A stretch of 64,000 bases of DNA from Thermoplasmata archaeon (GTDB lineage Archaea; Thermoplasmatota; Thermoplasmata; Lutacidiplasmatales; UBA184): assembly GCA_027315455.1 (NCBI GenBank), contig DAHUXZ010000004.1:9009-73008 (forward strand). The letters are read 5' to 3'. Below are positions 900 through 63,105 of the stretch, piece by piece. The notes under the pieces were generated by a model that did not search any database, was not told where the DNA came from, and was given only the letters and a program-made list of their open reading frames with translations. The position numbers and the translations under genes are program-made. Each line of letters begins with the position of its first letter. Within the stretch, counting starts at the first letter, position 1.

Positions 900-1964
900 T
901 TAAGGTTTTGCGGCGCCGCTCTCGGCGGCGGAACCGCTGCCGCGGCGGCCGGACCAGCCGTAGGCCAGCAGGCCGTGGAAGGCCCCCCAGAGGGTCGCCC
1001 ACCGGCGGGGGATCTCGAGGACGGCCCATCGCAGCCCCGGGTAGCGGGCGTCCTCGCGCCGCCCCCAGACGGTGAGGCCGAGCGCGAGCGCCCCGAACCC
1101 CGCCCCGGCCAGCCCGAGGAGCCACAGCCCGAGCTCTCGGGTGGACGCCGGGACGAGGAGGACCGCCCCCGCGACGGCGAGGAGCGGGAGCGCGACGTAG
1201 GGGAAGAGCCGTTGGGCGCTCGCCTCGTAGGTGCTCCGGCGACGCCGCCAGACGACGAACCCGCCCTCGGCGTAGATCCGTTGCTTGCGCAGCAGGCCGA
1301 ACGTGGAGATGTCCGAGAAGTCGTGGTCGACGCTGGCCTCCGGGACGTAGACGCCCTTCCACCCGTTCTCGAGCGCGCGCACCGCGATCTCCTGGTCCTC
1401 GCTCGCGGCGCGCCGGTAGAGCGTCGTGTCGAGGAGACCCACGGACCGGAAGACCGCGGCGCGCCAGGCGGAGTTCCCCATCGGGAGCGCGTGGGGGTTC
1501 GCCCGGGCGACCCGGTCGTAGAAGCGGCGCAGGTAGCCGTCGTAGTAGCGCGCGCCGACGCTGCGGGCGGTCCCCTCGAGCGCCGGGGTGGGGCCGCCCG
1601 TGAACCCCACCCGGGGGTCGGCGAACGGGGCGAGCAGCGCCTTCAGCCAGCCGGGGGGGGCGATCTCGTCCGCGTCCAGGAAGGCGACGAACTCCCCCGA
1701 CGCGACGCGGAGGGCGATGTTGCGGCTCTCGGGGATGTTGCCGGGAGCCGGCAGGTGCCGGATCCTCGGGTCGCGGGCGGTGAAACCCGCCGTGATCCGC
1801 TCGACCCGGTCGTCCCCGCCGCCGTCGTCGACGAGGACCTCGTCGGCCGGCCGCTCCTGGTGAAGGAGGCTCTCGAGGGTCCGCGCAATGCGGGGGTCAC
1901 GCAGCACCGTAAGGATGACCGTGACGGTGCCGGGCACGACCGGACGGAGCGGGGGCGCCGCCAT
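900..1964 (-). CDS. Family 2 glycosyltransferase with C-terminal transmembrane segments
   Basis: GT-A/GT2 hallmarks are present (VTVILTV...VDDGG...FLDADE). I chose the ATG at 1964, just downstream of the upstream gene's stop at 1970-1972. The longer tracked ORF (to 2102) would overlap the epimerase. Confidence 0.8.
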   Translation of the reverse strand: MAAPPLRPVVPGTVTVILTVLRDPRIARTLESLLHQERPADEVLVDDGGGDDRVERITAGFTARDPRIRHLPAPGNIPESRNIALRVASGEFVAFLDADEIAPPGWLKALLAPFADPRVGFTGGPTPALEGTARSVGARYYDGYLRRFYDRVARANPHALPMGNSAWRAAVFRSVGLLDTTLYRRAASEDQEIAVRALENGWKGVYVPEASVDHDFSDISTFGLLRKQRIYAEGGFVVWRRRRSTYEASAQRLFPYVALPLLAVAGAVLLVPASTRELGLWLLGLAGAGFGALALGLTVWGRREDARYPGLRWAVLEIPRRWATLWGAFHGLLAYGWSGRRGSGSAAESGAAKP

Positions 1965-3010: not shown

Positions 3011-3235
3011 ATGCGCACCTACGTTCGGATGATCTTCCACTCGGAGGGAGCCGACCCCCAGACGGTCCTGCGTGTCATGCGCGACCTGGGGTTCGAGGAG
3101 TCAATGGGCATGCACGACTTCGTCTACAAGTGGAAGGAGAAGGCGACCTTCGACGAAGTGATCAAGCTCATCACCGAGATGCACCGGCGCATGAAGGGTC
3201 TCGACGTGAACTACGAGATCACGACCATCTCGTAG
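3011..3235 (+). CDS. Small hypothetical protein (74 aa), alpha/beta-like composition
   Basis: ATG-initiated ORF with a balanced, non-Arg/Pro-rich composition, unlike the spurious ORFs here, and a promoter-like island upstream. I recognise no family. Confidence 0.55.
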   Translation: MRTYVRMIFHSEGADPQTVLRVMRDLGFEESMGMHDFVYKWKEKATFDEVIKLITEMHRRMKGLDVNYEITTIS

Positions 3236-3260
3236 CGCGAACCCCGCGCAAGGGGCGTTC

Positions 3261-30560: not shown

Positions 30561-30668
30561 GGGCCTGTAGCTTAGCTTGGACAAAGTACTGGCCTTCTAA
30601 GCCAGCAATCTCGGGTTCAAACGCCGCCGGGGGACGGACCCTCGCGGGGGAGACTCCCGACAGGCCCG
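30561..30668 (+). tRNA. tRNA-Arg (anticodon UCU) interrupted by a 33-nt insertion in the T-loop
   Basis: Manual cloverleaf:
- Acceptor GGGCCTG/CAGGCCC.
- D-arm GCTT-AGCTTGGACA-AAGT.
- Anticodon arm CTGGC-CTTCTAA-GCCAG.
- Variable loop CAATC.
- T-stem TCGGG/CCCGA, all paired.
The T-loop TTCAAA is separated from T+CCCGA by 33 nt. No CCA is encoded. Confidence 0.85.
30622..30654 (+). other. Putative non-canonical tRNA intron (T-loop, position about 59/60)
   Basis: Sequence CGCCGCCGGGGGACGGACCCTCGCGGGGGAGAC. Removing it restores the 7-nt T-loop TTCAAAT. It contains an internal hairpin (GGGGG-ACGGA-CCCTC). Confidence 0.7.
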
Positions 30669-35391: not shown

Positions 35392-36444
35392 TTACGTCCC
35401 CCCCATGTGGATCTTCCCGCGGTACTTCGCGTACGTCGCGTAGTTCAGCTCGATGCCCTGGTCGAGATACTCCTGGACCGGAAGACCGTAGCTCCGGTCG
35501 AACCGGGCGATCTCGTCCGTCGTCTCGATGTCGAACGCGTCCGAGCCGGCGCCGCTCCCGTAGCCGACGACGAGGATCCGCTGGCCGGGGGCGGCGCGGT
35601 CGAGGACGTTCGCGAGGCCGAGGAGGGCGGCCCCGGAGTAGGTGTTGCCGATGTAGGGGGTGACGAGGCCGTAGCGCATCTGCTCGTCGGTGAACCCGAG
35701 CTGCTTACCGATGCGCTGGGGGAACTTCCCGTTCGGCTGGTGGAAGACGACGTGGGCGTAGTCGCGCGGCGTCGTGCCGACCTCCTCCATGATGCGCCGG
35801 GCGCACTCGCCGACGTGGCGGAAGTAGGCCGGCTCGCCGGTGAAGCGGCCGCCATGGCTCGGGTAGCGCTGGCCCTCGCGGCGCCAGAAGTCGGGCGTGT
35901 CGGTCGTGTAGGAGAGGGTGCGGTGCACCTGCGCGATCACCCGTTCCCTCCCGATGACGAGCGCCGCGCCGCCCGCGCTCGCGCTGTACTCGAGCGCGTC
36001 TCCCGGGGCGCCCTGCGACGTGTCGGAGCCGATGGCGACCCCGTAGCGGATCATCCCCGAGGCGACGAGGCCGAGGCACGTCTGGATCGCCGCCGTCCCC
36101 GCCTTGCAGGCGAACTCGAAGTCGGCCGCCGTCAGGTTCGGGGTCGCCCCCACGGCCTGCGCCACCACGGAGGCCGTCGGCTTGACCGCGTAGGGGTGGG
36201 ACTCGCTCCCCACGTAGATCGCCCCGAGCTCCTGCGGGTCGATGGCCCCGCGGAGGAGCGCCGTCCGCAGCGCCTCGGTGCTGATCGTGATCGTGTCCTC
36301 GTCCGGCGCCGGCACGCTCTTGCGGTGGACGTTCAGGCCCTGGCCCATCGCCGTCCCGTCGGTCCCCCAGACCTTCCCGATCTCCTCCGGCGTGATCCGG
36401 TAGCGCGGCACGTAGGCGCCGTAACTCACGATCCCTGCGTCCAT
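35392..36444 (-). CDS. Hydroxymethylglutaryl-CoA synthase (archaeal)
   Basis: Conserved blocks [20 protein letters not shown] and HQPNGKFP. First gene of the HMGCS-thiolase-DUF35 trio. Confidence 0.9.
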
Positions 36445-36466: not shown

Positions 36467-37144
36467 CTAGAGCTCCTCGAGGCGCTCGAGCACCTCGGCG
36501 GCGCCGTACGGCGTGGTCAGGAGAGGGATGTTCTCGACCTCACTGAGCCGGACCGCGAGCGGGTCGACGCGGCCGGGGTTAGAGAGGACGACGGCCGCCG
36601 GCTTGAGCGGGTGGGCGCGGATCGCCACCATCGGGGAGCGGCCGTACTTGACGTTGGCGAAGATCAGCGCCCGCTGGGTCGTCCAGCCGTACATCTCCAC
36701 GAAGTGGGAGGCGTCGATCGACAGGATCGCCCGGGGGGCATCGACCAGGGTAAACCCATGGATGTCCCGGTGAAGGTCGACGCGGCTCGCCATCTTCGCC
36801 TCGAGGGCGTCGGCGAGGGATTTGAGCGGCACCGCGACGGAGAACTCGCGCATCCCCAGGATCCCCTCGGAGTGCGGGCGCCGCCCGAGCCGCGCCGACA
36901 CCTTCCCGCCGCTCTGCTGGTCGAGCGCGAGGAGGGCGTGGACGTACTTCCGGATGAAGCCGGCACCGGGACTCGCCCGGCGCTCCGCCTCGTAGTCGCT
37001 GACGACCGACGGGACGGTCGAGAGGGACCGGGCCAGGTCCCGCTGCGAGACCCCGAAGTCCTCGCGCCACTTGCGAAGGGTGCGTCCCGGGTGGGCCGAG
37101 AGGACGACCTCCCCGGCGATCTTCTCCTCGATGGTGGTGTCCAC
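36467..37144 (-). CDS. Archaeal HTH (XRE-type) transcriptional regulator, COG1395-like
   Basis: [37 protein letters not shown]...[14 protein letters not shown]. The GTG at 37144 lies 25-30 nt downstream of TTTATA (leaderless spacing). An in-frame ATG at 37189 is the alternative start. Confidence 0.7.
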
Positions 37145-37168
37145 GGGTCCCTCGGAGGAGGGGTGCGG

Positions 37169-37174
37169 TATAAA
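37169..37174 (-). promoter_or_regulatory. TATA box (TTTATA on the minus strand) for the COG1395-like regulator
   Basis: AT island 25-30 nt upstream of the GTG at 37144. Confidence 0.45.
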
Positions 37175-37247
37175 GCGGTGCCTCCGCATGTCGTCCGGGG
37201 GGTTCGACACCGGACGAACTCGCCCGCGATCCGGGCGAGCGGAGGAG

Positions 37248-37354
37248 TGGACCGGGCGAGAGTTTCCGGCGCGGGGGGAGGTCCCCCGCGTCCGTTTGAA
37301 CTCGCGGCCTCTACCTTGCCAAGGTAGCGATCTTCCGGACTGATCTACCGGCCC
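37248..37354 (-). tRNA. tRNA-Ala (anticodon GGC) interrupted by a 33-nt insertion in the T-loop
   Basis: Manual cloverleaf on the minus strand:
- Acceptor GGGCCGG/CCGGTCC, with the G3:U70 Ala identity pair and A73.
- D-arm GATC-AGTCCGGAA-GATC.
- Anticodon arm CTACC-TTGGCAA-GGTAG.
- T-stem GCGAG/CTCGC.
The T-loop TTCAAA is separated from T+CTCGC by 33 nt. Confidence 0.85.
37262..37294 (-). other. Putative non-canonical tRNA intron (T-loop, position about 59/60)
   Basis: Minus-strand sequence CGGACGCGGGGGACCTCCCCCCGCGCCGGAAAC. It has the same length and position as the tRNA-Arg insert and a 7-bp internal hairpin GCGGGGG/CCCCCGC. Confidence 0.7.
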
Positions 37355-37459
37355 ACGCCGACTCGGCGACGCGGCTCGACACATAACCGTTGTCACCCGT
37401 CCGAGCCGGCGCTCCGGCCCCCGACGAGGGTTTGAACGCGGCCGGGCCTGAGGGGCGGC

Positions 37460-37999
37460 ATGGCCCGCACGCACGCCGCGGGGCGCCCCCGCTACCGGCT
37501 GCGGCGGGTCGCCTTGACCGACCTCGAGCTCCTCGGCAAGCACCGCGCGGGAATGTGGCGGGACATCGGGGGCCGGTCCGAGCGGGCGATCGCCGGCCAC
37601 CTGCCCGCGTACCGCCGGTGGCTGCGCACGGCATTCGCGCGTCGCCGGGTGACCGGGTTCGTCGCCGAGGATGCGGACGGTGCTCCGGTCGCGAGCGGTC
37701 TCGTCTGGTTCCAGGACGCCCAGCCCCGGCCCGGGGAGCTCGCGCCGCAGGCGCCGTACATCCTCTCGATGTACACCGAACCCGCGCATCGGGGCCACGG
37801 TCTCGCCACCCAGATCGTCCGGGCCCTCATCGCCCTCTGCCGGTCGCGGGGCTACCGGCGGGTGACCCTCCACGCGAGCGAAGCCGGGCGGCCCGTCTAC
37901 GCACGCCTCGGGTTCGTCCCCACCCGCGAGATGCGCCGGTTCCTTTCGGCCCGGACCCGGTCGGCGGCCCGCGCCCCGGCGGTCCGCCGGTCCCGATAG
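37460..37999 (+). CDS. GNAT family N-acetyltransferase
   Basis: Acetyl-CoA binding block HRGHGLATQIVRALIALCRSRGYRRVTLHASEAGRPVYARLGF. Confidence 0.75.
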   Translation: MARTHAAGRPRYRLRRVALTDLELLGKHRAGMWRDIGGRSERAIAGHLPAYRRWLRTAFARRRVTGFVAEDADGAPVASGLVWFQDAQPRPGELAPQAPYILSMYTEPAHRGHGLATQIVRALIALCRSRGYRRVTLHASEAGRPVYARLGFVPTREMRRFLSARTRSAARAPAVRRSR

Positions 38000-52080: not shown

Positions 52081-53436
52081 TCAGCCGCCGCCGGTATAAA
52101 TCCGTCCCCCGGCGCGGCCCCGCCAGGGCACCTCGGGTCCGCGCGGGGCGAGGTGGCGCCTCGCCGACGGGGTGGGGTGGTACTCTCCCGGCGCGGGCGC
52201 GGACGGCGGGGGCCCCGACCGCGCGTGCTCCGGGGCGAAGCGGCGTCGGCAGCCCTCGCAGCGGAACCCGCGCGACGCGCCGAGCGAGTGGGCCGGCCGC
52301 TGACAGCCGGGGCAGAGGGGGGGGAGCCGGGGGCCCCGACGCGGCGCGACGCGCGAGAGGACGATCCCCTCGAGCCGGAACGTCGGGTCCTCGGCCCGAC
52401 CTCCCCAGACCTCGACCCGGTCCCCCGGGGCGAGCTGGCGGGCGATCTGCGGTAGGGTCTTCGTCGGCTCAAACGCGATGCAGTCGAGCCGGTCCCCCGC
52501 CCGGTCCTGGACCGTGAAGGCGATGTGACCACCCGCCAGCGGCCGCGGCGTCCCGACGACCGTCCCGCGGACCCGGCCGGCCGAGTAGGGGGCGAGCGTG
52601 CCGGCGGCGCGACGAAGGAGATGGTCGCCGGTCCCTTGATTGGTCCGGAAGATGACCCAGCGGTCGACCGCCTCGGAGCGCACCGACCGACGGGCCCGGG
52701 GGAGCACCGCGGGGTCGGTCGAGCGAAGTCCGTAGAGGATCGGGCACGCCGTGTGCGGGGCGACGAGCAGACGCCGCGTCCGCCCGTCCGCGCAGAGGAA
52801 GAGCTCCGGGTGCGCCGCCTGCGCCGCGAGCACGCTCGCCCGGCTGACCCGCCGGGGCCGCCCCGTCGTCTCGGGTCGGCGGTAGGCGATGAGCTCCCAG
52901 GTCGACCGGCGGGCCGGCCAGGCGATCGCGGCGGCCGCCCCCACGAGGCCCCGACGCGAACCGGACGTGCGGGATTCGACCCCGGCCGTCGCCACCCACG
53001 GCTCGACCTCGCCGAGCGCCACCTCGTCGCGTACGGCCTTCCAGTACAGACGCTCCGGAAGCCGGCGGGGGCTCACCACCATCGCCGGGTCGACCCGATC
53101 CTCGCCCGTCCGTGCCGTCGCGAGCACCGTCGCCCACGCTTCCTGCGCGAACCCGGCGCGCGCCGACGCGGTCGGCGGGCGGCCGCGCGCGAAGGCGAGG
53201 ACCGGACGGCCGGCGATCCGACCGACGACGCGGGAGGGGCCGACCCCGTGGCCGAACCGGGCCGCCAGCGCCGCGTTCCCCCGGGTCTTCCAGGGGACGT
53301 TGGGGTTGAGCCGGACCAGGCGCGGCTCCCCGAGGAGGTCCAGGCCGCGACCGCGGGCGACGCGCAGCAGCTCGGTGAGGACGTAGGTCGTGCATCCGCC
53401 GCGCGGGCTGTCGGTGTCGTCGATCCCGACCCACAC
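52081..53436 (-). CDS. tiaS: tRNA(Ile2) 2-agmatinylcytidine synthetase TiaS
   Basis: N-terminus MWVGIDDTDSPRGGCTTYV and a C-terminal zinc ribbon CPGC...CEGC. Confidence 0.85.
   Translation of the reverse strand: MWVGIDDTDSPRGGCTTYVLTELLRVARGRGLDLLGEPRLVRLNPNVPWKTRGNAALAARFGHGVGPSRVVGRIAGRPVLAFARGRPPTASARAGFAQEAWATVLATARTGEDRVDPAMVVSPRRLPERLYWKAVRDEVALGEVEPWVATAGVESRTSGSRRGLVGAAAAIAWPARRSTWELIAYRRPETTGRPRRVSRASVLAAQAAHPELFLCADGRTRRLLVAPHTACPILYGLRSTDPAVLPRARRSVRSEAVDRWVIFRTNQGTGDHLLRRAAGTLAPYSAGRVRGTVVGTPRPLAGGHIAFTVQDRAGDRLDCIAFEPTKTLPQIARQLAPGDRVEVWGGRAEDPTFRLEGIVLSRVAPRRGPRLPPLCPGCQRPAHSLGASRGFRCEGCRRRFAPEHARSGPPPSAPAPGEYHPTPSARRHLAPRGPEVPWRGRAGGRIYTGGG
52095..52100 (-). promoter_or_regulatory. 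TATA box (TTTATA on the minus strand) upstream of htpX, inside the 3' end of tiaS
   Basis: AT island 36-41 nt upstream of the htpX ATG (52059). Confidence 0.4.
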
Positions 53437-60292: not shown

Positions 60293-61422
60293 GCTCCGCC
60301 GGCTACCGCATCGTGCTCCTTCCCGGCGACGGCACCGGGCCCGAGGTCATCGCCGAAGGGCGAAAGATCCTGGACACCCTCGCCGAGGGGGACGCCGCGC
60401 CCTGGCGGCTCGAGGAGCACGCGGGCGGGGGGCAGTACTACCTTGCCCACGGGCGGGAGTGGGAACCTGAGGCGGAGGCCGCGACGCGGGCGGCCGACGC
60501 GATCCTCCTCGGGGCTGTCGGGTGGCCCGGCGCGCGGCTCCCCAACGGGGACATGGCGGGCGGGGCGCTCGTGCTCGGTCTGCGCTCGCGCCTCGACCTC
60601 TTCGCGAACGTTCGCCCCTGTCGTCTCTACCCGGGCGTCCTCCACCGCATCAGCGGGGAGTACCGCCAGGTGTGGGACCCGAAGCACGTGGACATGGTCA
60701 TCGTGCGGGAGAACACCGAAGGGCTCTACACCCCCGCCCGGGGGGTGCTCCGGAGGGCCGACGAGACCGAGGTCGCCGTCGACACCCGGATCATCACGAA
60801 GAAGGGCGCCGAGCGGGTGATCCGCTACGCCTTCGACCTCGCGCGCGCCCGGCCCCGGGGCGCCCCCGAGGACGGCACGCGGCGGGTGACGTGCGTCGAC
60901 AAGTCGAACGTCCTCGAGGGCTGCCGCTTCTTCCGCTCGACGTTCGACCGGATCGCGAAGGAGTATCCCGAGATCGAACTCGACTATGCCTACGTGGACG
61001 CGTTCACCCAGTGGATCGTCCGCAATCCCGAGCGCTACGACGTCGTCGTCTCGACGAACATGATGGGGGACATCATCACCGACCTCGCCAGCGTTCTGCA
61101 GGGCGGCATGGGGTTCGCGGCCGGCGGGAACATCGGCACCGACCACGCCATGTTCGAACCGGTGCACGGGAGCGCGCCGAAGTACGCGGGCCAGCACCGT
61201 GTCAACCCGTTCGCGACGTTCTTCGCCGTTGAGATGCTCCTCCGGTGGCTCGGGGAGCGGCGCGCGGACGGCCGCCTCGTCCGCCAGGCCGACCGTCTCG
61301 AGGCCGCGATCGCCTCGACCCTGGCCCGGGGCGACGCCCGGACCTACGACCAGGGCGGCGCGGTCACGACGACCGGGGCGGGGGACCGGCTCGCTGAGGC
61401 GATCCGGGGGATCCCCCGATGA
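60289..61422 (+). CDS. Isopropylmalate / homoisocitrate / tartrate dehydrogenase family enzyme
   Basis: [20 protein letters not shown] and [12 protein letters not shown] blocks. The ATG overlaps the upstream stop. Confidence 0.85.
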
Positions 61423-62600
61423 GCGCCCGCCGGGACGTCGCGGTCGTCGGCGGCGCCACGGTGAAGTTCGGGATCCGGCCGGCGACGTGGCCCGAGCTCG
61501 CCCAGGAGGCCGGGCTCGCGCTCTTCCGCGCGGTCCCCGCGCTCGCGTCGGCCGACGTCGACTCGTTGTTCGTCGGCGCGGCCGAGCCCGAGCGCTTCGC
61601 GTTCCAGTCGCATGTCGCCCCGCTCGCCGCCGAGCAGATGGGGCTCACCCCTCACCGCATCCTGCAGCGGACCGAGCTCGCGTGCGCGTCGGGCCAGTCG
61701 GCGATCCGCAGCGCCTACGCGGCGATCGCCTCCGGGCTCAGCGACGTGGCCGTCGCCGTCGGGGTCGAGAAGATGAACCTCCCCTCGATGGCCGAGGCGA
61801 ACACCGCGATGGCCTGCGTGATGGACCGCCCGTGGGACGGCGTCCACGGGGCGACGGCGCCCCCGTTCTTCGCGATGGTCGCGCAGCGCCACATGCTCGA
61901 GTACGGGACGACCGAGGACCAGCTCGCGGCGGTGTCGGAGAAGAACCATCGGTTCGCGAACGCGAACCCGACGGCCCAGTTTCACGAGAAGACGTTCGCG
62001 CGGGAGAAGCTCCTTAGCCTTCCGCTCGTCGCCCCGCCGCTGCGCCTCGGCGACTGCTCGTCGATGACCGACGGGGCGGCCGCCGTCGTCCTCACGTCCG
62101 GCGAGCTCGCCCGGCGCTACACCGACTCGCCGGCGTGGATCCGCGGCTCCGGCCAGTACTCCGACTTCCACAATCTGGCGAACGCCGGCTCCCTGACCGA
62201 CTGGGTCGGCCTCCGCCGGGCGGGCGCCGAGGCGTTCCGGTCGGCCGGGATCACCCCGGGCGACCTCGACATGGCCGAGCTCCACGACTGCTTCACGATC
62301 TCGGAGATCGTGGAGTACGAGGCGCTCGGCCTCTGCCCGAAGGGCGAGGGGGGGCGCTTCGTGGCCGACGGGCGGTCGGACCTCGGCGGCGACCTCGTGG
62401 TGAACCCGCGCGGGGGTCTCCTCGGCTGCGGGCACCCGCTCGGGGCAACGGGGGTCGCGCAGGCCGTCGAGGTCTTCGAGCAGTTCGCGCAGAAGGTCGA
62501 CCCGCGGCGCCAGGTGCCCGACCCCCACTGGGCGCTCGTCCACAACCTGAGCGGGAGCGCCAACGTCCATTCGTTGATGGTCTACGAGCGGGGAGGCTAG
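61419..62600 (+). CDS. SCP-x/archaeal-type thiolase-like protein
   Basis: Thiolase fold (ACASGQSAI active-site Cys region; GGLLGCGHPLGATGVAQAVEVFEQ). The ATG overlaps the dehydrogenase stop (ATGA). Confidence 0.85.
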   Translation: MSARRDVAVVGGATVKFGIRPATWPELAQEAGLALFRAVPALASADVDSLFVGAAEPERFAFQSHVAPLAAEQMGLTPHRILQRTELACASGQSAIRSAYAAIASGLSDVAVAVGVEKMNLPSMAEANTAMACVMDRPWDGVHGATAPPFFAMVAQRHMLEYGTTEDQLAAVSEKNHRFANANPTAQFHEKTFAREKLLSLPLVAPPLRLGDCSSMTDGAAAVVLTSGELARRYTDSPAWIRGSGQYSDFHNLANAGSLTDWVGLRRAGAEAFRSAGITPGDLDMAELHDCFTISEIVEYEALGLCPKGEGGRFVADGRSDLGGDLVVNPRGGLLGCGHPLGATGVAQAVEVFEQFAQKVDPRRQVPDPHWALVHNLSGSANVHSLMVYERGG

Positions 62601-62601
62601 C

Positions 62602-63105
62602 ATGACCGAGGCGGCCGTCGAGCTGGCGAAGAAGAAGCGACCGGTCGAGGCGGCGCCGTCGGCGACCGGGGCGGCGTCCGTCCCGTTCCTGCTCGACTTC
62701 TATCCCCTCGAGCGCGACGATCAGACCCGCCTCGCCCGGTTCTACGCGGCGCTCCGGGACGGCCGACTCACGACCACCCGCTGCCGCCGCGATGGCGGCC
62801 TCCTCTGGCCCCCGAGGACCGTCTGCCCCCGGTGCCACGACGACGCCCTCGACTGGGTCGACCTGCCGATGCGCGGGCAGATCTACGCGTTCAGCGCGGT
62901 CCTCGCCGGTGCCCCCCTCGGCATGGAGGGCGAGGTCCCGTTCGTCGTGGGCCTGGTCGACCTCGACGGAGCGCCGTTGCGCCTCTTCGGCCGGATCGAG
63001 GGCACGCCGTGGACCGGGGTGCGGATCGGCCAGGCGGTGCGGGTCGAGGCCTACACGATCCCGGACGGCCGCGTCTTCTACCGCTTCCGGATGGACGGCC
63101 GCTGA
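62602..63105 (+). CDS. DUF35 OB-fold/zinc-ribbon protein
   Basis: C...CPRC ribbon (CRRDGGLLWPPRTVCPRC) plus an OB-fold region. It starts 1 nt after the thiolase stop. Confidence 0.8.
   Translation: MTEAAVELAKKKRPVEAAPSATGAASVPFLLDFYPLERDDQTRLARFYAALRDGRLTTTRCRRDGGLLWPPRTVCPRCHDDALDWVDLPMRGQIYAFSAVLAGAPLGMEGEVPFVVGLVDLDGAPLRLFGRIEGTPWTGVRIGQAVRVEAYTIPDGRVFYRFRMDGR

What the first reader, a model, noticed from the sequence alone, without database searches (positions are those of the whole stretch)
37248..37354. tRNA-Ala(GGC) gene on the minus strand with a 33-nt T-loop insertion, hidden under a spurious long ORF
The minus strand reads GGGCCGG-TA-GATC-AGTCCGGAA-GATC-G-CTACC-TTGGCAA-GGTAG-AGGCC-GCGAG-TTCAAA-[33 nt]-T-CTCGC-CCGGTCC-A. 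The G3:U70 pair and A73, the alanine identity elements, are both present, which argues strongly for a functional tRNA-Ala.

The insertion sits at exactly the same T-loop position as in the tRNA-Arg 6.6 kb away. It contains a perfect 7-bp hairpin GCGGGGG/CCCCCGC. The same relaxed BHB can be drawn: UUC pairs with GAA, with AAC and ACU bulges.

The locus is covered in the ORF track by a 468-aa minus-strand ORF whose upstream part is not coding.
Basis: partly seen in the sequence, partly recalled or inferred. Interest (0 to 1): 0.7.

Follow-up and report, generated by a model that had tools for sequence, protein, structure and literature searches.

The report
Hidden alanine tRNA gene with T-loop intron
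This is a real alanine tRNA gene of an uncultured soil archaeon, interrupted by a 33-base intron in an unusual place (the T-loop); the intron is kept in every relative examined, hides the gene from standard tRNA finders, and belongs to a known type of archaeal intron.

Summary
Window 37354..37248 (minus strand) reads exactly as described. Removing 33 nt between tRNA positions 59 and 60 gives a clean tRNA-Ala(GGC) with G3:U70 and A73.

The gene lies in a non-coding gap. The 468-aa ORF over it is coding only in its C-terminal third.

The organism is a ~72% GC member of the soil order Lutacidiplasmatales (Thermoplasmata). All 24 related species-level genomes examined carry the same gene at the same locus, each with a 28-34 nt insert at the same position. 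Exons are 97.7% identical on average; introns are only 66% identical but keep one fold.

That fold is a 3-4-3 bulge-helix-bulge. The T stem is the outer helix. U54-U55-C56 pair with the intron's 3' end, and a conserved A57·G takes the fourth place. A covarying intron hairpin is the inner helix.

tRNA-Arg(UCU) in the window has the same intron. So does tRNA-Asn(GUU) on metagenome contigs that probably belong to the same order. Neighbouring tRNA-Met and tRNA-Arg(CCG) genes lack it.

A genome bin that carries the intron-bearing Ala gene encodes a 354-aa two-repeat (alpha'2-type) splicing endonuclease with no broad-specificity insert. Splicing itself is inferred, not shown.

Verdict: a new member of a known kind, and moderately interesting.

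The parts
37248..37354 (-). Whole tRNA-Ala(GGC) precursor gene (107 nt, G1 at 37354, discriminator A73 at 37248; no encoded CCA)
   Evidence: Sequence. ARAGORN calls tRNA-Ala(ggc) after in-silico splicing. The MFE fold is a cloverleaf plus an intron hairpin. Orthologues are present in 24 related loci.
37295..37354 (-). 5' exon (tRNA positions 1-59); anticodon GGC at 37320..37318
   Evidence: Exons are 97.7% identical on average across 25 genomes.
37262..37294 (-). 33-nt intron between tRNA positions 59 and 60. Hairpin h' is at 37293..37268. The 3' segment GGAA (37267..37264) faces U54 U55 C56 A57. The last two nt, AC (37263..37262), lie in the 3' bulge.
   Evidence: RNAalifold and pair counts show covariation in the hairpin. 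Introns are only 66% identical on average and all 25 differ.
37248..37261 (-). 3' exon (positions 60-73)
   Evidence: Acceptor pair 5-68 changes C-G to U-A together across the intron in 5 of the 22 precursors aligned (6 of all 25).
37297..37300 (-). T-loop U54 U55 C56 A57, the 5' strand of the central BHB helix in the precursor
   Evidence: Pairs 54, 55 and 56 are standard in 41 of 41 Ala and Arg precursors. Position 57 faces G in 40 of 41 and U in 1.
37381..37390 (-). A/T-rich BRE/TATA-like box (ACGGTTATGT) 27-36 nt upstream of the mature 5' end
   Evidence: An equivalent box (consensus about gaAGGnCTTATC) sits at the same distance in almost all the orthologues, within about 70% GC DNA. Its function is inferred.
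36467..37156 (-). Real gene downstream of the tRNA: an XRE/HTH_31-family regulator. It is the coding C-terminal part of the 468-aa ORF 36467..37873. The start codon is approximate.
   Evidence: GC at the third codon position is 0.90-0.98 only in this stretch. Pfam HTH_31.
37460..37999 (+). GNAT acetyltransferase gene on the other side of the tRNA. It accounts for the composition of the upstream part of the spurious ORF.
30561..30668 (+). Sister case: tRNA-Arg(TCT). 5' exon 30561-30621, 33-nt intron 30622-30654 at 59/60, 3' exon 30655-30668.
   Evidence: Conserved with a 29-35 nt intron in 15 related loci.

Best explanation
This is a functional archaeal tRNA-Ala(GGC) gene, transcribed from its own BRE/TATA-type promoter as a 107-nt-plus precursor.

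In the precursor the acceptor, D and anticodon arms and the T stem form as usual. The T-loop cannot form. U54, U55 and C56 pair with the G-R-R near the intron's 3' end, and A57 lies opposite a conserved G. Together these make the 4-position central helix of a bulge-helix-bulge motif.

The T stem (49-53/61-65) is the outer helix. The G+C-rich intron hairpin is the inner helix. The two 3-nt bulges are A58-A59-i1 and i32-i33-U60. This geometry is the exact T-loop counterpart of the canonical 37/38 anticodon-loop intron: a 7-nt loop with the intron after the sixth loop nucleotide.

The splicing endonuclease EndA cuts after the second nucleotide of each bulge, that is at 59|i1 and i33|60. An RNA ligase (RtcB in archaea) joins the exons. 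The T-loop UUCAAAU then forms and the tRNA matures.

Shown here: the sequence, the fold, its conservation and covariation, and the presence of an alpha'2-type EndA in a genome bin of the same order that carries the same intron. Inferred: transcription, cleavage at these exact bonds, ligation, and that this alpha'2 enzyme is the one that does the cutting.
For: - Gene identity. In-silico splicing gives a tRNA-Ala(ggc) that ARAGORN accepts; the unspliced form is missed. The precursor MFE fold is a cloverleaf plus an intron hairpin, z = -3.55.
- Setting. The gene lies in a non-coding gap between an HTH gene and a GNAT gene.
- Conservation. The gene is syntenic in 24 related species-level genomes, and every one has a 28-34 nt insert at 59/60. 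Exons are 97.7% identical on average; introns are 65.9% identical, with 25 distinct sequences.
- BHB register. It is conserved in 41 Ala and Arg precursors. Pairs 54, 55 and 56 are standard in 41 of 41, A57 faces G in 40 of 41, and the first inner-helix pair is G-C in 39 of 41.
- Consensus fold. RNAalifold predicts a cloverleaf plus an intron hairpin. Of paired cells, 93.9% are standard pairs against 88.8% in shuffles (0 of 500 shuffles reach this) and 33-52% in slid registers. Six of eight hairpin pairs show two-sided changes, and acceptor pair 5-68 covaries across the intron.
- Promoter. A promoter-like box is conserved upstream.
- Same intron elsewhere. It occurs in tRNA-Arg(TCT) in the window and in 15 relatives, and in tRNA-Asn(GTT) on 6 high-GC metagenome contigs.
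- Enzyme. EndA P0605 lies on DASWZL010000047.1. That is the same assembly as L011 (DASWZL010000104.1), which carries the intron-bearing Ala gene. It has two tRNA_int_endo_N + tRNA_int_endo repeats. The catalytic Tyr, His and Lys are present in the C-terminal repeat.
- Precedent. 59/60 BHB introns have been cleaved in vitro in ARMAN-2 (PMC3239211).
Against: - There are no RNA data. Neither the precursor nor the spliced tRNA has been observed.
- In the nearest-neighbour energy model the 3-bp central helix is not part of the MFE. Forcing it costs +2.5 kcal/mol in the window's Ala precursor and 3.5 kcal/mol on average. The predicted probability of these pairs is 2-3%.
- The central helix has only three standard pairs plus A·G. 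It is therefore not a textbook strict BHB, and alpha'2/alpha4 enzymes are described as needing the strict motif (PMC3239211, PMC6379350).
- The link between EndA and the tRNA rests on a metagenome bin, and binning can err. A second endonuclease in these genomes was not excluded.
Confidence: 0.88

Rival explanations
1. The insert is not removed. The mature tRNA keeps a 33-nt extra hairpin emerging from the T-loop between positions 59 and 60. This spot lies outside the five-nucleotide T-loop core (own knowledge of T-loop motifs), so an insertion there might be tolerated.
For: The hairpin is stable and conserved as a structure. No RNA evidence for splicing exists.
Against: A retained arm would not need the intron's 3' end to stay complementary to U54-U55-C56, yet these pairs are standard in 41 of 41 precursors. 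It would not need two 3-nt bulges spaced by exactly four helix positions. Insert length varies from 28 to 35 nt and sequence drifts freely, as expected for a discarded spacer. The genome bin encodes an intact splicing endonuclease. 59/60 inserts of this form are spliced in ARMAN-2.
Confidence: 0.04
2. The intron is a relaxed BHB that needs a broad-specificity endonuclease, (alpha-beta)2 or epsilon2 type. The alpha'2 enzyme found would then not be the enzyme that cuts it.
For: The central helix has only 3 standard pairs plus A·G, and in the window's copy it can be drawn as a 3-bp helix. The literature states that only (alpha-beta)2 and epsilon2 enzymes efficiently cut relaxed motifs.
Against: Both flanking helices and both 3-nt bulges are present and conserved. 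That is the hBHBh' layout, not hBH or HBh'. The only EndA recovered from this order is alpha'2. Its catalytic repeat aligns with M. jannaschii EndA over residues 4-171 without large gaps. Its Tyr-to-His loop is the shortest of those aligned and lacks the loop-lengthening extra residues that the ARMAN-2 enzyme has there. The profile searches returned two-repeat enzymes of about 340-375 aa for every high-GC Thermoplasmata-like group.
Confidence: 0.06
3. This is a disrupted, non-functional tRNA pseudogene, or the scar of a mobile-element insertion.
For: Standard tRNA finders reject it.
Against: The exons are near-invariant over 25 species-level genomes while the insert drifts. A compensatory change in the acceptor stem spans the insert. 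The promoter box, G3:U70 and A73 are conserved. The sequences flanking the insert (TTCAAA before it, TCTCGC after it) are not a target-site duplication, by reading. The same arrangement holds in two further isoacceptors.
Confidence: 0.02

Closest known systems
59/60 (T-loop) BHB introns of Candidatus Micrarchaeum acidiphilum ARMAN-2: pre-tRNA-Cys(GCA) and pre-tRNA-Pro(GGG) (Fujishima et al. 2011, PMC3239211)
   Same: The intron lies between positions 59 and 60 of the T-loop. It is a short intron removed through a bulge-helix-bulge built on the T stem. Such genes are missed by ordinary tRNA finders. In ARMAN-2, cleavage was shown in vitro.
   Different: ARMAN-2 uses a three-unit epsilon2 endonuclease with a specific loop and broad specificity. 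Its tRNA-Cys intron is 13 nt and of the relaxed hBH type. Here the host is a Thermoplasmata order whose EndA is a plain alpha'2 type. The introns are 28-35 nt with both flanking helices, and a conserved A·G sits in the central helix. No biochemistry exists for the present case.
Non-canonical and multiple tRNA introns of Crenarchaeota/Thermoproteales and Thaumarchaeota (reviewed in PMC4033280 and PMC8450103)
   Same: BHB-type introns at positions other than 37/38, including in the T arm. They are conserved among related species, and similar introns occur in several tRNAs of one genome.
   Different: Those lineages have (alpha-beta)2 endonucleases with the Crenarchaea-specific loop, many intron positions and often several introns per gene. 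Here only one position (59/60) was seen, in three isoacceptors. The Ala and Arg introns of one genome are no more alike than those of different genomes, so there is no sign of recent intron transposition.
Canonical 37/38 anticodon-loop introns of Euryarchaeota cut by alpha'2 EndA (e.g. Archaeoglobus fulgidus, PDB 2GJW; Thermoplasma acidophilum, 2OHC)
   Same: The geometry is identical. A 5-bp stem serves as the outer helix, the first four nucleotides of a 7-nt loop pair with the 3' end of the intron, the intron follows the sixth loop nucleotide, and there are two 3-nt bulges and an inner helix. The enzyme architecture is the same (two tandem repeats, with the catalytic Tyr/His/Lys in the second).
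   Different: The loop used is the T-loop, not the anticodon loop. The fourth central-helix position is a conserved A·G mismatch. The published generalisation is that alpha'2 lineages ('Cluster II' Euryarchaeota) cut only canonical BHB motifs and have few tRNA genes with non-canonical introns.

Membership tests
tRNA-Ala gene (archaeal) | Cloverleaf with 7-bp acceptor stem, D arm, anticodon arm and 5-bp T stem with a 7-nt T-loop, once the insert is removed | tested here: met
   ARAGORN calls a 74-nt tRNA-Ala(ggc) on the spliced sequence. RNAalifold gives a cloverleaf on 22 orthologues.
tRNA-Ala gene (archaeal) | Alanine identity elements G3:U70 and A73; anticodon GGC | tested here: met
   Read directly from the sequence. 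G3:U70 is invariant in 22 of 22 aligned orthologues.
tRNA-Ala gene (archaeal) | Expressed and aminoacylated | not testable with these tools
   No RNA data. The only indirect support is the conserved promoter-like box and purifying selection on the exons.
Archaeal bulge-helix-bulge (BHB) tRNA intron | Two 3-nt bulges on opposite strands, separated by a 4-position helix, with the splice sites inside the bulges so that excision gives a correct mature sequence | tested here: met
   The register is conserved in 41 precursors. The bulges are A58-A59-i1 and i(n-1)-i(n)-U60. Excision restores UUCAAAU.
Archaeal bulge-helix-bulge (BHB) tRNA intron | Flanking helices h (exon) and h' (intron), i.e. the hBHBh' layout | tested here: met
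   h is the T stem, invariant at 5 bp. h' is the intron hairpin, with compensatory changes in 6 of 8 pairs.
Archaeal bulge-helix-bulge (BHB) tRNA intron | Strict form: four Watson-Crick or wobble pairs in the central helix | tested here: not met
   Three standard pairs plus A57·G in 40 of 41 precursors; a full 4 bp only in L025. The helix is not in the MFE and costs +2.5 to +3.8 kcal/mol to force.
Archaeal bulge-helix-bulge (BHB) tRNA intron | A splicing endonuclease (EndA) encoded by the same organism | tested here: met
   P0605 lies on DASWZL010000047.1, the same assembly as the intron-bearing L011. The catalytic triad is conserved. Caveat: this is a metagenome bin, and not the window's own genome.
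Archaeal bulge-helix-bulge (BHB) tRNA intron | Cleavage at the predicted bonds and ligation (RtcB) | not testable with these tools
   This needs an in vitro assay or RNA sequencing. RtcB was not searched for.
Lineages with broad-specificity EndA ((alpha-beta)2 or epsilon2 with a CSL/ASL loop) | Separate alpha and beta subunits, or a three-unit protein, with a Lys-bearing specific loop | tested here: not met
   The enzyme is 354 aa with two repeats. Its catalytic repeat aligns with M. jannaschii EndA over residues 4-171 without large gaps. Its Tyr-to-His loop is 7 residues shorter than in ARMAN-2. An additional enzyme elsewhere in the genome was not excluded.

The most novel reading that the evidence does not exclude
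Lutacidiplasmatales may be a whole order of 'Cluster II' Euryarchaeota in which a plain alpha'2 endonuclease, without any broad-specificity loop, routinely services T-loop (59/60) introns in several tRNAs.

The central BHB helix always carries an A57·G instead of a fourth base pair. Under this reading, the introns would have been gained in or before the order's ancestor and kept since. Possible reasons are that they break up the T-arm sequences that integrating elements use as attachment sites, or that they impose an order on T-loop modification.

This would be a natural counter-example to the rule that alpha'2 lineages only hold canonical-position introns. It would also point to a lineage-specific recognition feature.
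Probability: 0.3. Interest if true: 0.6.

Novelty: new member of a known kind. Interest (0 to 1): 0.45.

Why it matters
1. Annotation. ARAGORN finds no tRNA in this 64-kb window. Rfam finds only a partial hit to the Arg gene, and the Ala hit (23.4 bits) stays below Rfam's curated threshold of 29. Tools of this kind will therefore miss these tRNA genes in this abundant soil order, and the 468-aa ORF over the gene is a trap for gene callers.

2. Enzyme-substrate coevolution. The textbook picture ties non-canonical tRNA introns to (alpha-beta)2 and epsilon2 endonucleases. Here an order-wide, multi-isoacceptor set of T-loop introns sits beside an ordinary alpha'2 enzyme. The pair offers a clean natural substrate-enzyme system for testing how strict alpha'2 enzymes really are, and what the conserved A·G does.

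3. Intron evolution. The introns are old (present in all 24 relatives examined), confined to one position, and show no sign of recent copying between genes. This differs from the Thermoproteales pattern.

Tried and rejected
- ARAGORN and Rfam (gathering threshold) on the raw window miss the Ala gene. Rfam in E-value mode gives only a sub-threshold 23.4-bit hit.
- A search for more hidden tRNAs found only the Ala and Arg genes in the window. Nothing turned up in the about 10 kb recovered beyond each end of the window on contigs of a near-identical genome bin.
- A generic T-loop-intron DNA pattern run on viral contigs returned only chance matches.
- No EndA is present in the window or in the first 80 loci.
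- The first EndA family found (350 aa, 'group X', loci L081-L085 and L222) turned out to belong to Lunaplasmatales/RBG-16-68-12. JAKIWT is isolate SubAcS15-131 according to the supplement of PMC9287336. It was therefore rejected as this lineage's enzyme.
- Attempts to link EndA and HMG-CoA synthase through equal contig lengths or neighbouring protein accession numbers failed. The link finally came from a shared assembly prefix, DASWZL01.
- Tetranucleotide similarity separates the two orders only weakly.
- A test for concerted evolution or transposition between the Ala and Arg introns of one genome was negative (permutation p = 0.41).
- A 'tRNA-Pro(ggg)' with a 27-nt insert in L025, from my own scan, looks like a G+C-rich false positive.
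- Whether the genome has a second tRNA-Ala(GGC) could not be tested.

Full report
**What is in the sequence**

ARAGORN finds no tRNA in the whole 64-kb window. Rfam at its curated threshold reports only a partial tRNA at 30564-30631. In the permissive mode the Ala locus appears as a sub-threshold 23.4-bit hit. Once the 33 nt after TTCAAA are removed, ARAGORN calls a 74-nt tRNA-Ala(GGC) with G3:U70 and A73.

The same operation at 30561..30668 (+) gives tRNA-Arg(TCT), which also carries a 33-nt insert.

The unspliced Ala sequence folds into a cloverleaf whose T-loop carries an 8+3 bp hairpin. The MFE is -55.8 kcal/mol, z = -3.55, and none of 200 shuffles folds as well.

**The setting**

The window is about 72% G+C, so long spurious ORFs are everywhere. 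GC by codon phase shows that the 468-aa ORF 36467..37873 (-) is coding only from 36467 to about 37150. This part is an HTH_31/XRE-type regulator (Pfam).

The signal is flat over 37200-37350, where the tRNA lies. From 37460 a plus-strand GNAT acetyltransferase gene takes over.

An A/T-rich box, ACGGTTATGT, lies 27-36 nt upstream of the mature 5' end. This is where an archaeal BRE/TATA element is expected (placement is from established knowledge of archaeal promoters).

**Whose genome**

The neighbouring HMG-CoA synthase (35392..36444, -) was used to fetch related loci from one genome per species. The best 26 hits (79-87% identity, 66-74% G+C) are uncultured 'Thermoplasmata archaeon' genome bins from soil and peat. 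The next tier (64-70%) is Methanomassiliicoccales and relatives.

Three of the close bins are listed as Lutacidiplasmatales in Sheridan et al. 2022: SubAcS15-25, SubAcS15-31 and AcS5-116. This order corresponds to the Terrestrial Miscellaneous Euryarchaeota Group and GTDB order UBA184, with about 69% G+C (PMC9287336). That paper never mentions introns.

Proteins from both ends of the window are 100% identical to genes in bin GCA_027315875.1.

**Comparative test of the tRNA**

All 24 close loci that cover the region hold a tRNA-Ala(GGC) about 850 nt upstream of the synthase gene. Every one has an insert of 28-34 nt after TTCAAA.

The exons are almost frozen: 6 distinct sequences, mean pairwise identity 97.7%. 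All 25 introns differ, with a mean identity of 65.9% and a minimum of 46%.

Acceptor pair 5-68 changes from C-G to U-A on both sides of the insert in five of the 22 precursors aligned, and in six of all 25. This ties the two exons together as one molecule.

A box of the form gaAGGnCTTATC sits at the same distance upstream in almost all the orthologues.

These are the marks of a working gene with a discarded spacer. They are not the marks of a pseudogene.

**The splicing motif**

I anchored the register on the exon borders, so that no alignment was needed, and tabulated 25 Ala and 16 Arg precursors.

- U54 pairs with A or G at intron position n-2.
- U55 pairs with A or G at n-3.
- C56 pairs with G at n-4. 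All three pairs are standard in 41 of 41 precursors.
- A57 faces G at n-5 in 40 precursors and U in one (L025).
- The 5' bulge is A58-A59-i1, where i1 is G in 36 precursors and C in 5.
- The 3' bulge is i(n-1)-i(n)-U60.
- The inner helix starts at i2-i(n-6), which is G-C in 39 of 41. It continues with many compensatory changes.

RNAalifold on 22 Ala precursors independently returns a cloverleaf plus the intron hairpin. On that alignment the full structure has 93.9% standard pairs. Shuffles give 88.8%, and 0 of 500 reach the observed value. Slid registers give 33-52%. Six of eight hairpin pairs show two-sided changes.

This is the hBHBh' layout. The T stem is h and the intron hairpin is h'. Two 3-nt bulges are separated by four helix positions. 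It is the exact T-loop analogue of the canonical 37/38 intron: a 7-nt loop, the intron after the sixth loop nucleotide, and the first four loop nucleotides paired to the intron's 3' end. This comparison rests on established knowledge of the BHB motif.

Thermodynamically the short central helix is not part of the MFE. Forcing it costs 2.5 kcal/mol in the window's Ala precursor and 3.5-3.8 kcal/mol on average. It remains a genuine weakness.

**How widespread**

tRNA-Arg(TCT), 6.6 kb away, has the same kind of intron (29-35 nt) in the window and in 15 relatives.

One scan of public metagenome contigs used a pattern that excludes the known Ala and Arg genes. It returned six high-GC contigs (0.67-0.71) with tRNA-Asn(GTT) carrying a 31-33 nt intron of the same design at 59/60. 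An intron-free tRNA-Met(CAT) follows 30-45 nt downstream, and an intron-free tRNA-Arg(CCG) lies a few kb away.

Tetranucleotide composition places those contigs nearer to the Lutacidiplasmatales loci than to the sister order. That assignment is only probable.

At least three isoacceptors therefore carry the T-loop intron, and others do not. The Ala and Arg introns of one genome are no more alike than introns of different genomes (permutation p = 0.41). There is thus no sign of recent copying.

The loci of the second tier (sister orders, 64-70% synthase identity) held only ordinary tRNA-Pro(CGG) genes and one tRNA-Ile(GAT) gene. Whether the trait extends beyond the order is unknown.

**The endonuclease**

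The M. jannaschii EndA sequence, recalled from memory and verified as identical to PDB 1A79, seeded two profile searches and one exhaustive search.

A first family of 350-aa enzymes proved to belong to Lunaplasmatales. One member lies in JAKIWT, which is isolate SubAcS15-131, GTDB order RBG-16-68-12. It was set aside.

A second family (354 aa, cluster P0463/P0603/P0605) has the gene order CarS-like, phosphoribosyltransferase, EndA, then chorismate synthase either directly or after a short semialdehyde-dehydrogenase-like ORF. One member lies on DASWZL010000047.1. This is the same assembly as locus L011 (DASWZL010000104.1), which carries the tRNA-Ala gene with a 33-nt 59/60 intron.

The protein has two tRNA_int_endo_N plus tRNA_int_endo repeats, which is the alpha'2 architecture. 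Its best matches among solved structures that are natural proteins are the A. fulgidus alpha'2 enzymes; the top match overall is the engineered M. kandleri alpha-beta fusion 5X89.

The second repeat aligns with the M. jannaschii enzyme over residues 4-171 without large gaps. It keeps the catalytic Tyr, His and Lys, at positions 292, 300 and 331. Its Tyr-to-His loop is the shortest of those aligned, seven residues shorter than the ARMAN-2 enzyme's loop.

By sequence, then, the lineage has the 'narrow' type of enzyme. It fits the near-strict form of the motif. A second endonuclease in these genomes was not excluded.

**Comparison with what is known**

BHB introns at 59/60 are documented. ARMAN-2 pre-tRNA-Cys(GCA) and pre-tRNA-Pro(GGG) have them, and the tRNA-Cys intron was cleaved in vitro by the epsilon2 enzyme (PMC3239211). 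Reviews list T-loop positions among the non-canonical sites (PMC6379350).

Non-canonical introns are described mainly from Crenarchaeota, Thaumarchaeota, Nanoarchaeota, Korarchaeota and ARMAN (PMC8450103, PMC4033280). 'Cluster II' Euryarchaeota, to which Thermoplasmata belong by my reading, are said to encode exclusively alpha'2 EndA (PMC5829648). That type is said to require a strict BHB.

I found no paper that reports T-loop introns in Thermoplasmata. Such searches cannot prove absence, and tRNAscan-SE 2 in archaeal mode may well detect these genes.

The finding is therefore a new member of a known kind. What is new is the host lineage, the enzyme type that accompanies it, its order-wide conservation in several isoacceptors, and the conserved A·G.

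**Verdict**

Two points need correcting: how relaxed the motif is, and which enzyme type is present.

Confidence that this is a functional tRNA-Ala gene whose 33-nt insert is removed by the archaeal splicing endonuclease is 0.88. The rivals together take about 0.12: a retained arm, a need for a broad-specificity enzyme, and a pseudogene.

Interest is moderate (0.45). The finding is ordinary in mechanism. It is useful for annotation of an abundant soil archaeal order, and it gives a clean natural test of what alpha'2 endonucleases will accept.

Noticed in passing
window 30561-30668 (+): tRNA-Arg(TCT) with a 33-nt intron at 59/60 (5' exon 30561-30621, intron 30622-30654). It has the same BHB design and is conserved with 29-35 nt introns in 15 related genomes. 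In the window's copy the first inner-helix pair is a G·G mismatch.
   Followed up: yes
loci L206, L208, L209, L212, L217, L218 (JGI metagenome contigs, GC 0.67-0.71): tRNA-Asn(GTT) with a 31-33 nt intron of the same design at 59/60. An intron-free tRNA-Met(CAT) follows 30-45 nt downstream, and an intron-free tRNA-Arg(CCG) lies 3-4 kb upstream in L209 and L212. In L206 and L208 the 3' bulge is one nucleotide short. Assignment to the same order rests on composition only.
   Followed up: partly
locus L215, about 3166-3257 (-) (FWWM01001734.1, GC 0.46): tRNA-Cys(GCA) with a 22-nt insert at 59/60 in an unrelated low-GC archaeal contig. It recalls the ARMAN-2 tRNA-Cys 59/60 intron. Its BHB looks more relaxed.
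   Followed up: no
all Ala, Arg and Asn precursors; in the window 37297 (A57) opposite 37267 (G28 of the intron): A non-Watson-Crick A57·G is conserved at the fourth position of the central BHB helix: 40 of 41 Ala and Arg precursors, and also in Asn. A U at that intron position would give a perfect helix. No explanation was tested.
   Followed up: partly
whole window: ARAGORN reports no tRNA in 64 kb, and Rfam at its curated threshold reports only a partial hit. The only two tRNA genes in the window are both intron-bearing, so tRNA counts for this order made with such tools will be too low.
   Followed up: yes
window about 52081-53436 (-), 61419-62600 (+), 62602-63105 (+): A TiaS (tRNA-Ile2 agmatidine synthetase) homologue. 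Also an acetoacetyl-CoA thiolase plus DUF35-like pair that lies 25 kb away from the HMG-CoA synthase gene (35392-36444). In archaea these three genes usually sit together (own knowledge).
   Followed up: no
window 900-959 (-): A weak, sub-threshold Rfam match to Pyrobaculum H/ACA-like sRNA PyrR209 (27.7 bits against a gathering score of 42). The same match appears in the near-identical bin (L220 9917-9976). It is probably chance.
   Followed up: no
loci L081-L085, L222 versus L221, L223-L237: Two soil Thermoplasmata orders have alpha'2 EndA genes in different, internally conserved neighbourhoods. In Lunaplasmatales-type loci EndA lies between a PDDEXK_19+HTH_3 gene and a HAD hydrolase. In the Lutacidiplasmatales-type loci L223-L237 it follows CarS-like and phosphoribosyltransferase genes and precedes the shikimate-pathway genes; L221 shares only the upstream CarS-like and phosphoribosyltransferase pair. 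The enzymes are about 48% identical.
   Followed up: partly
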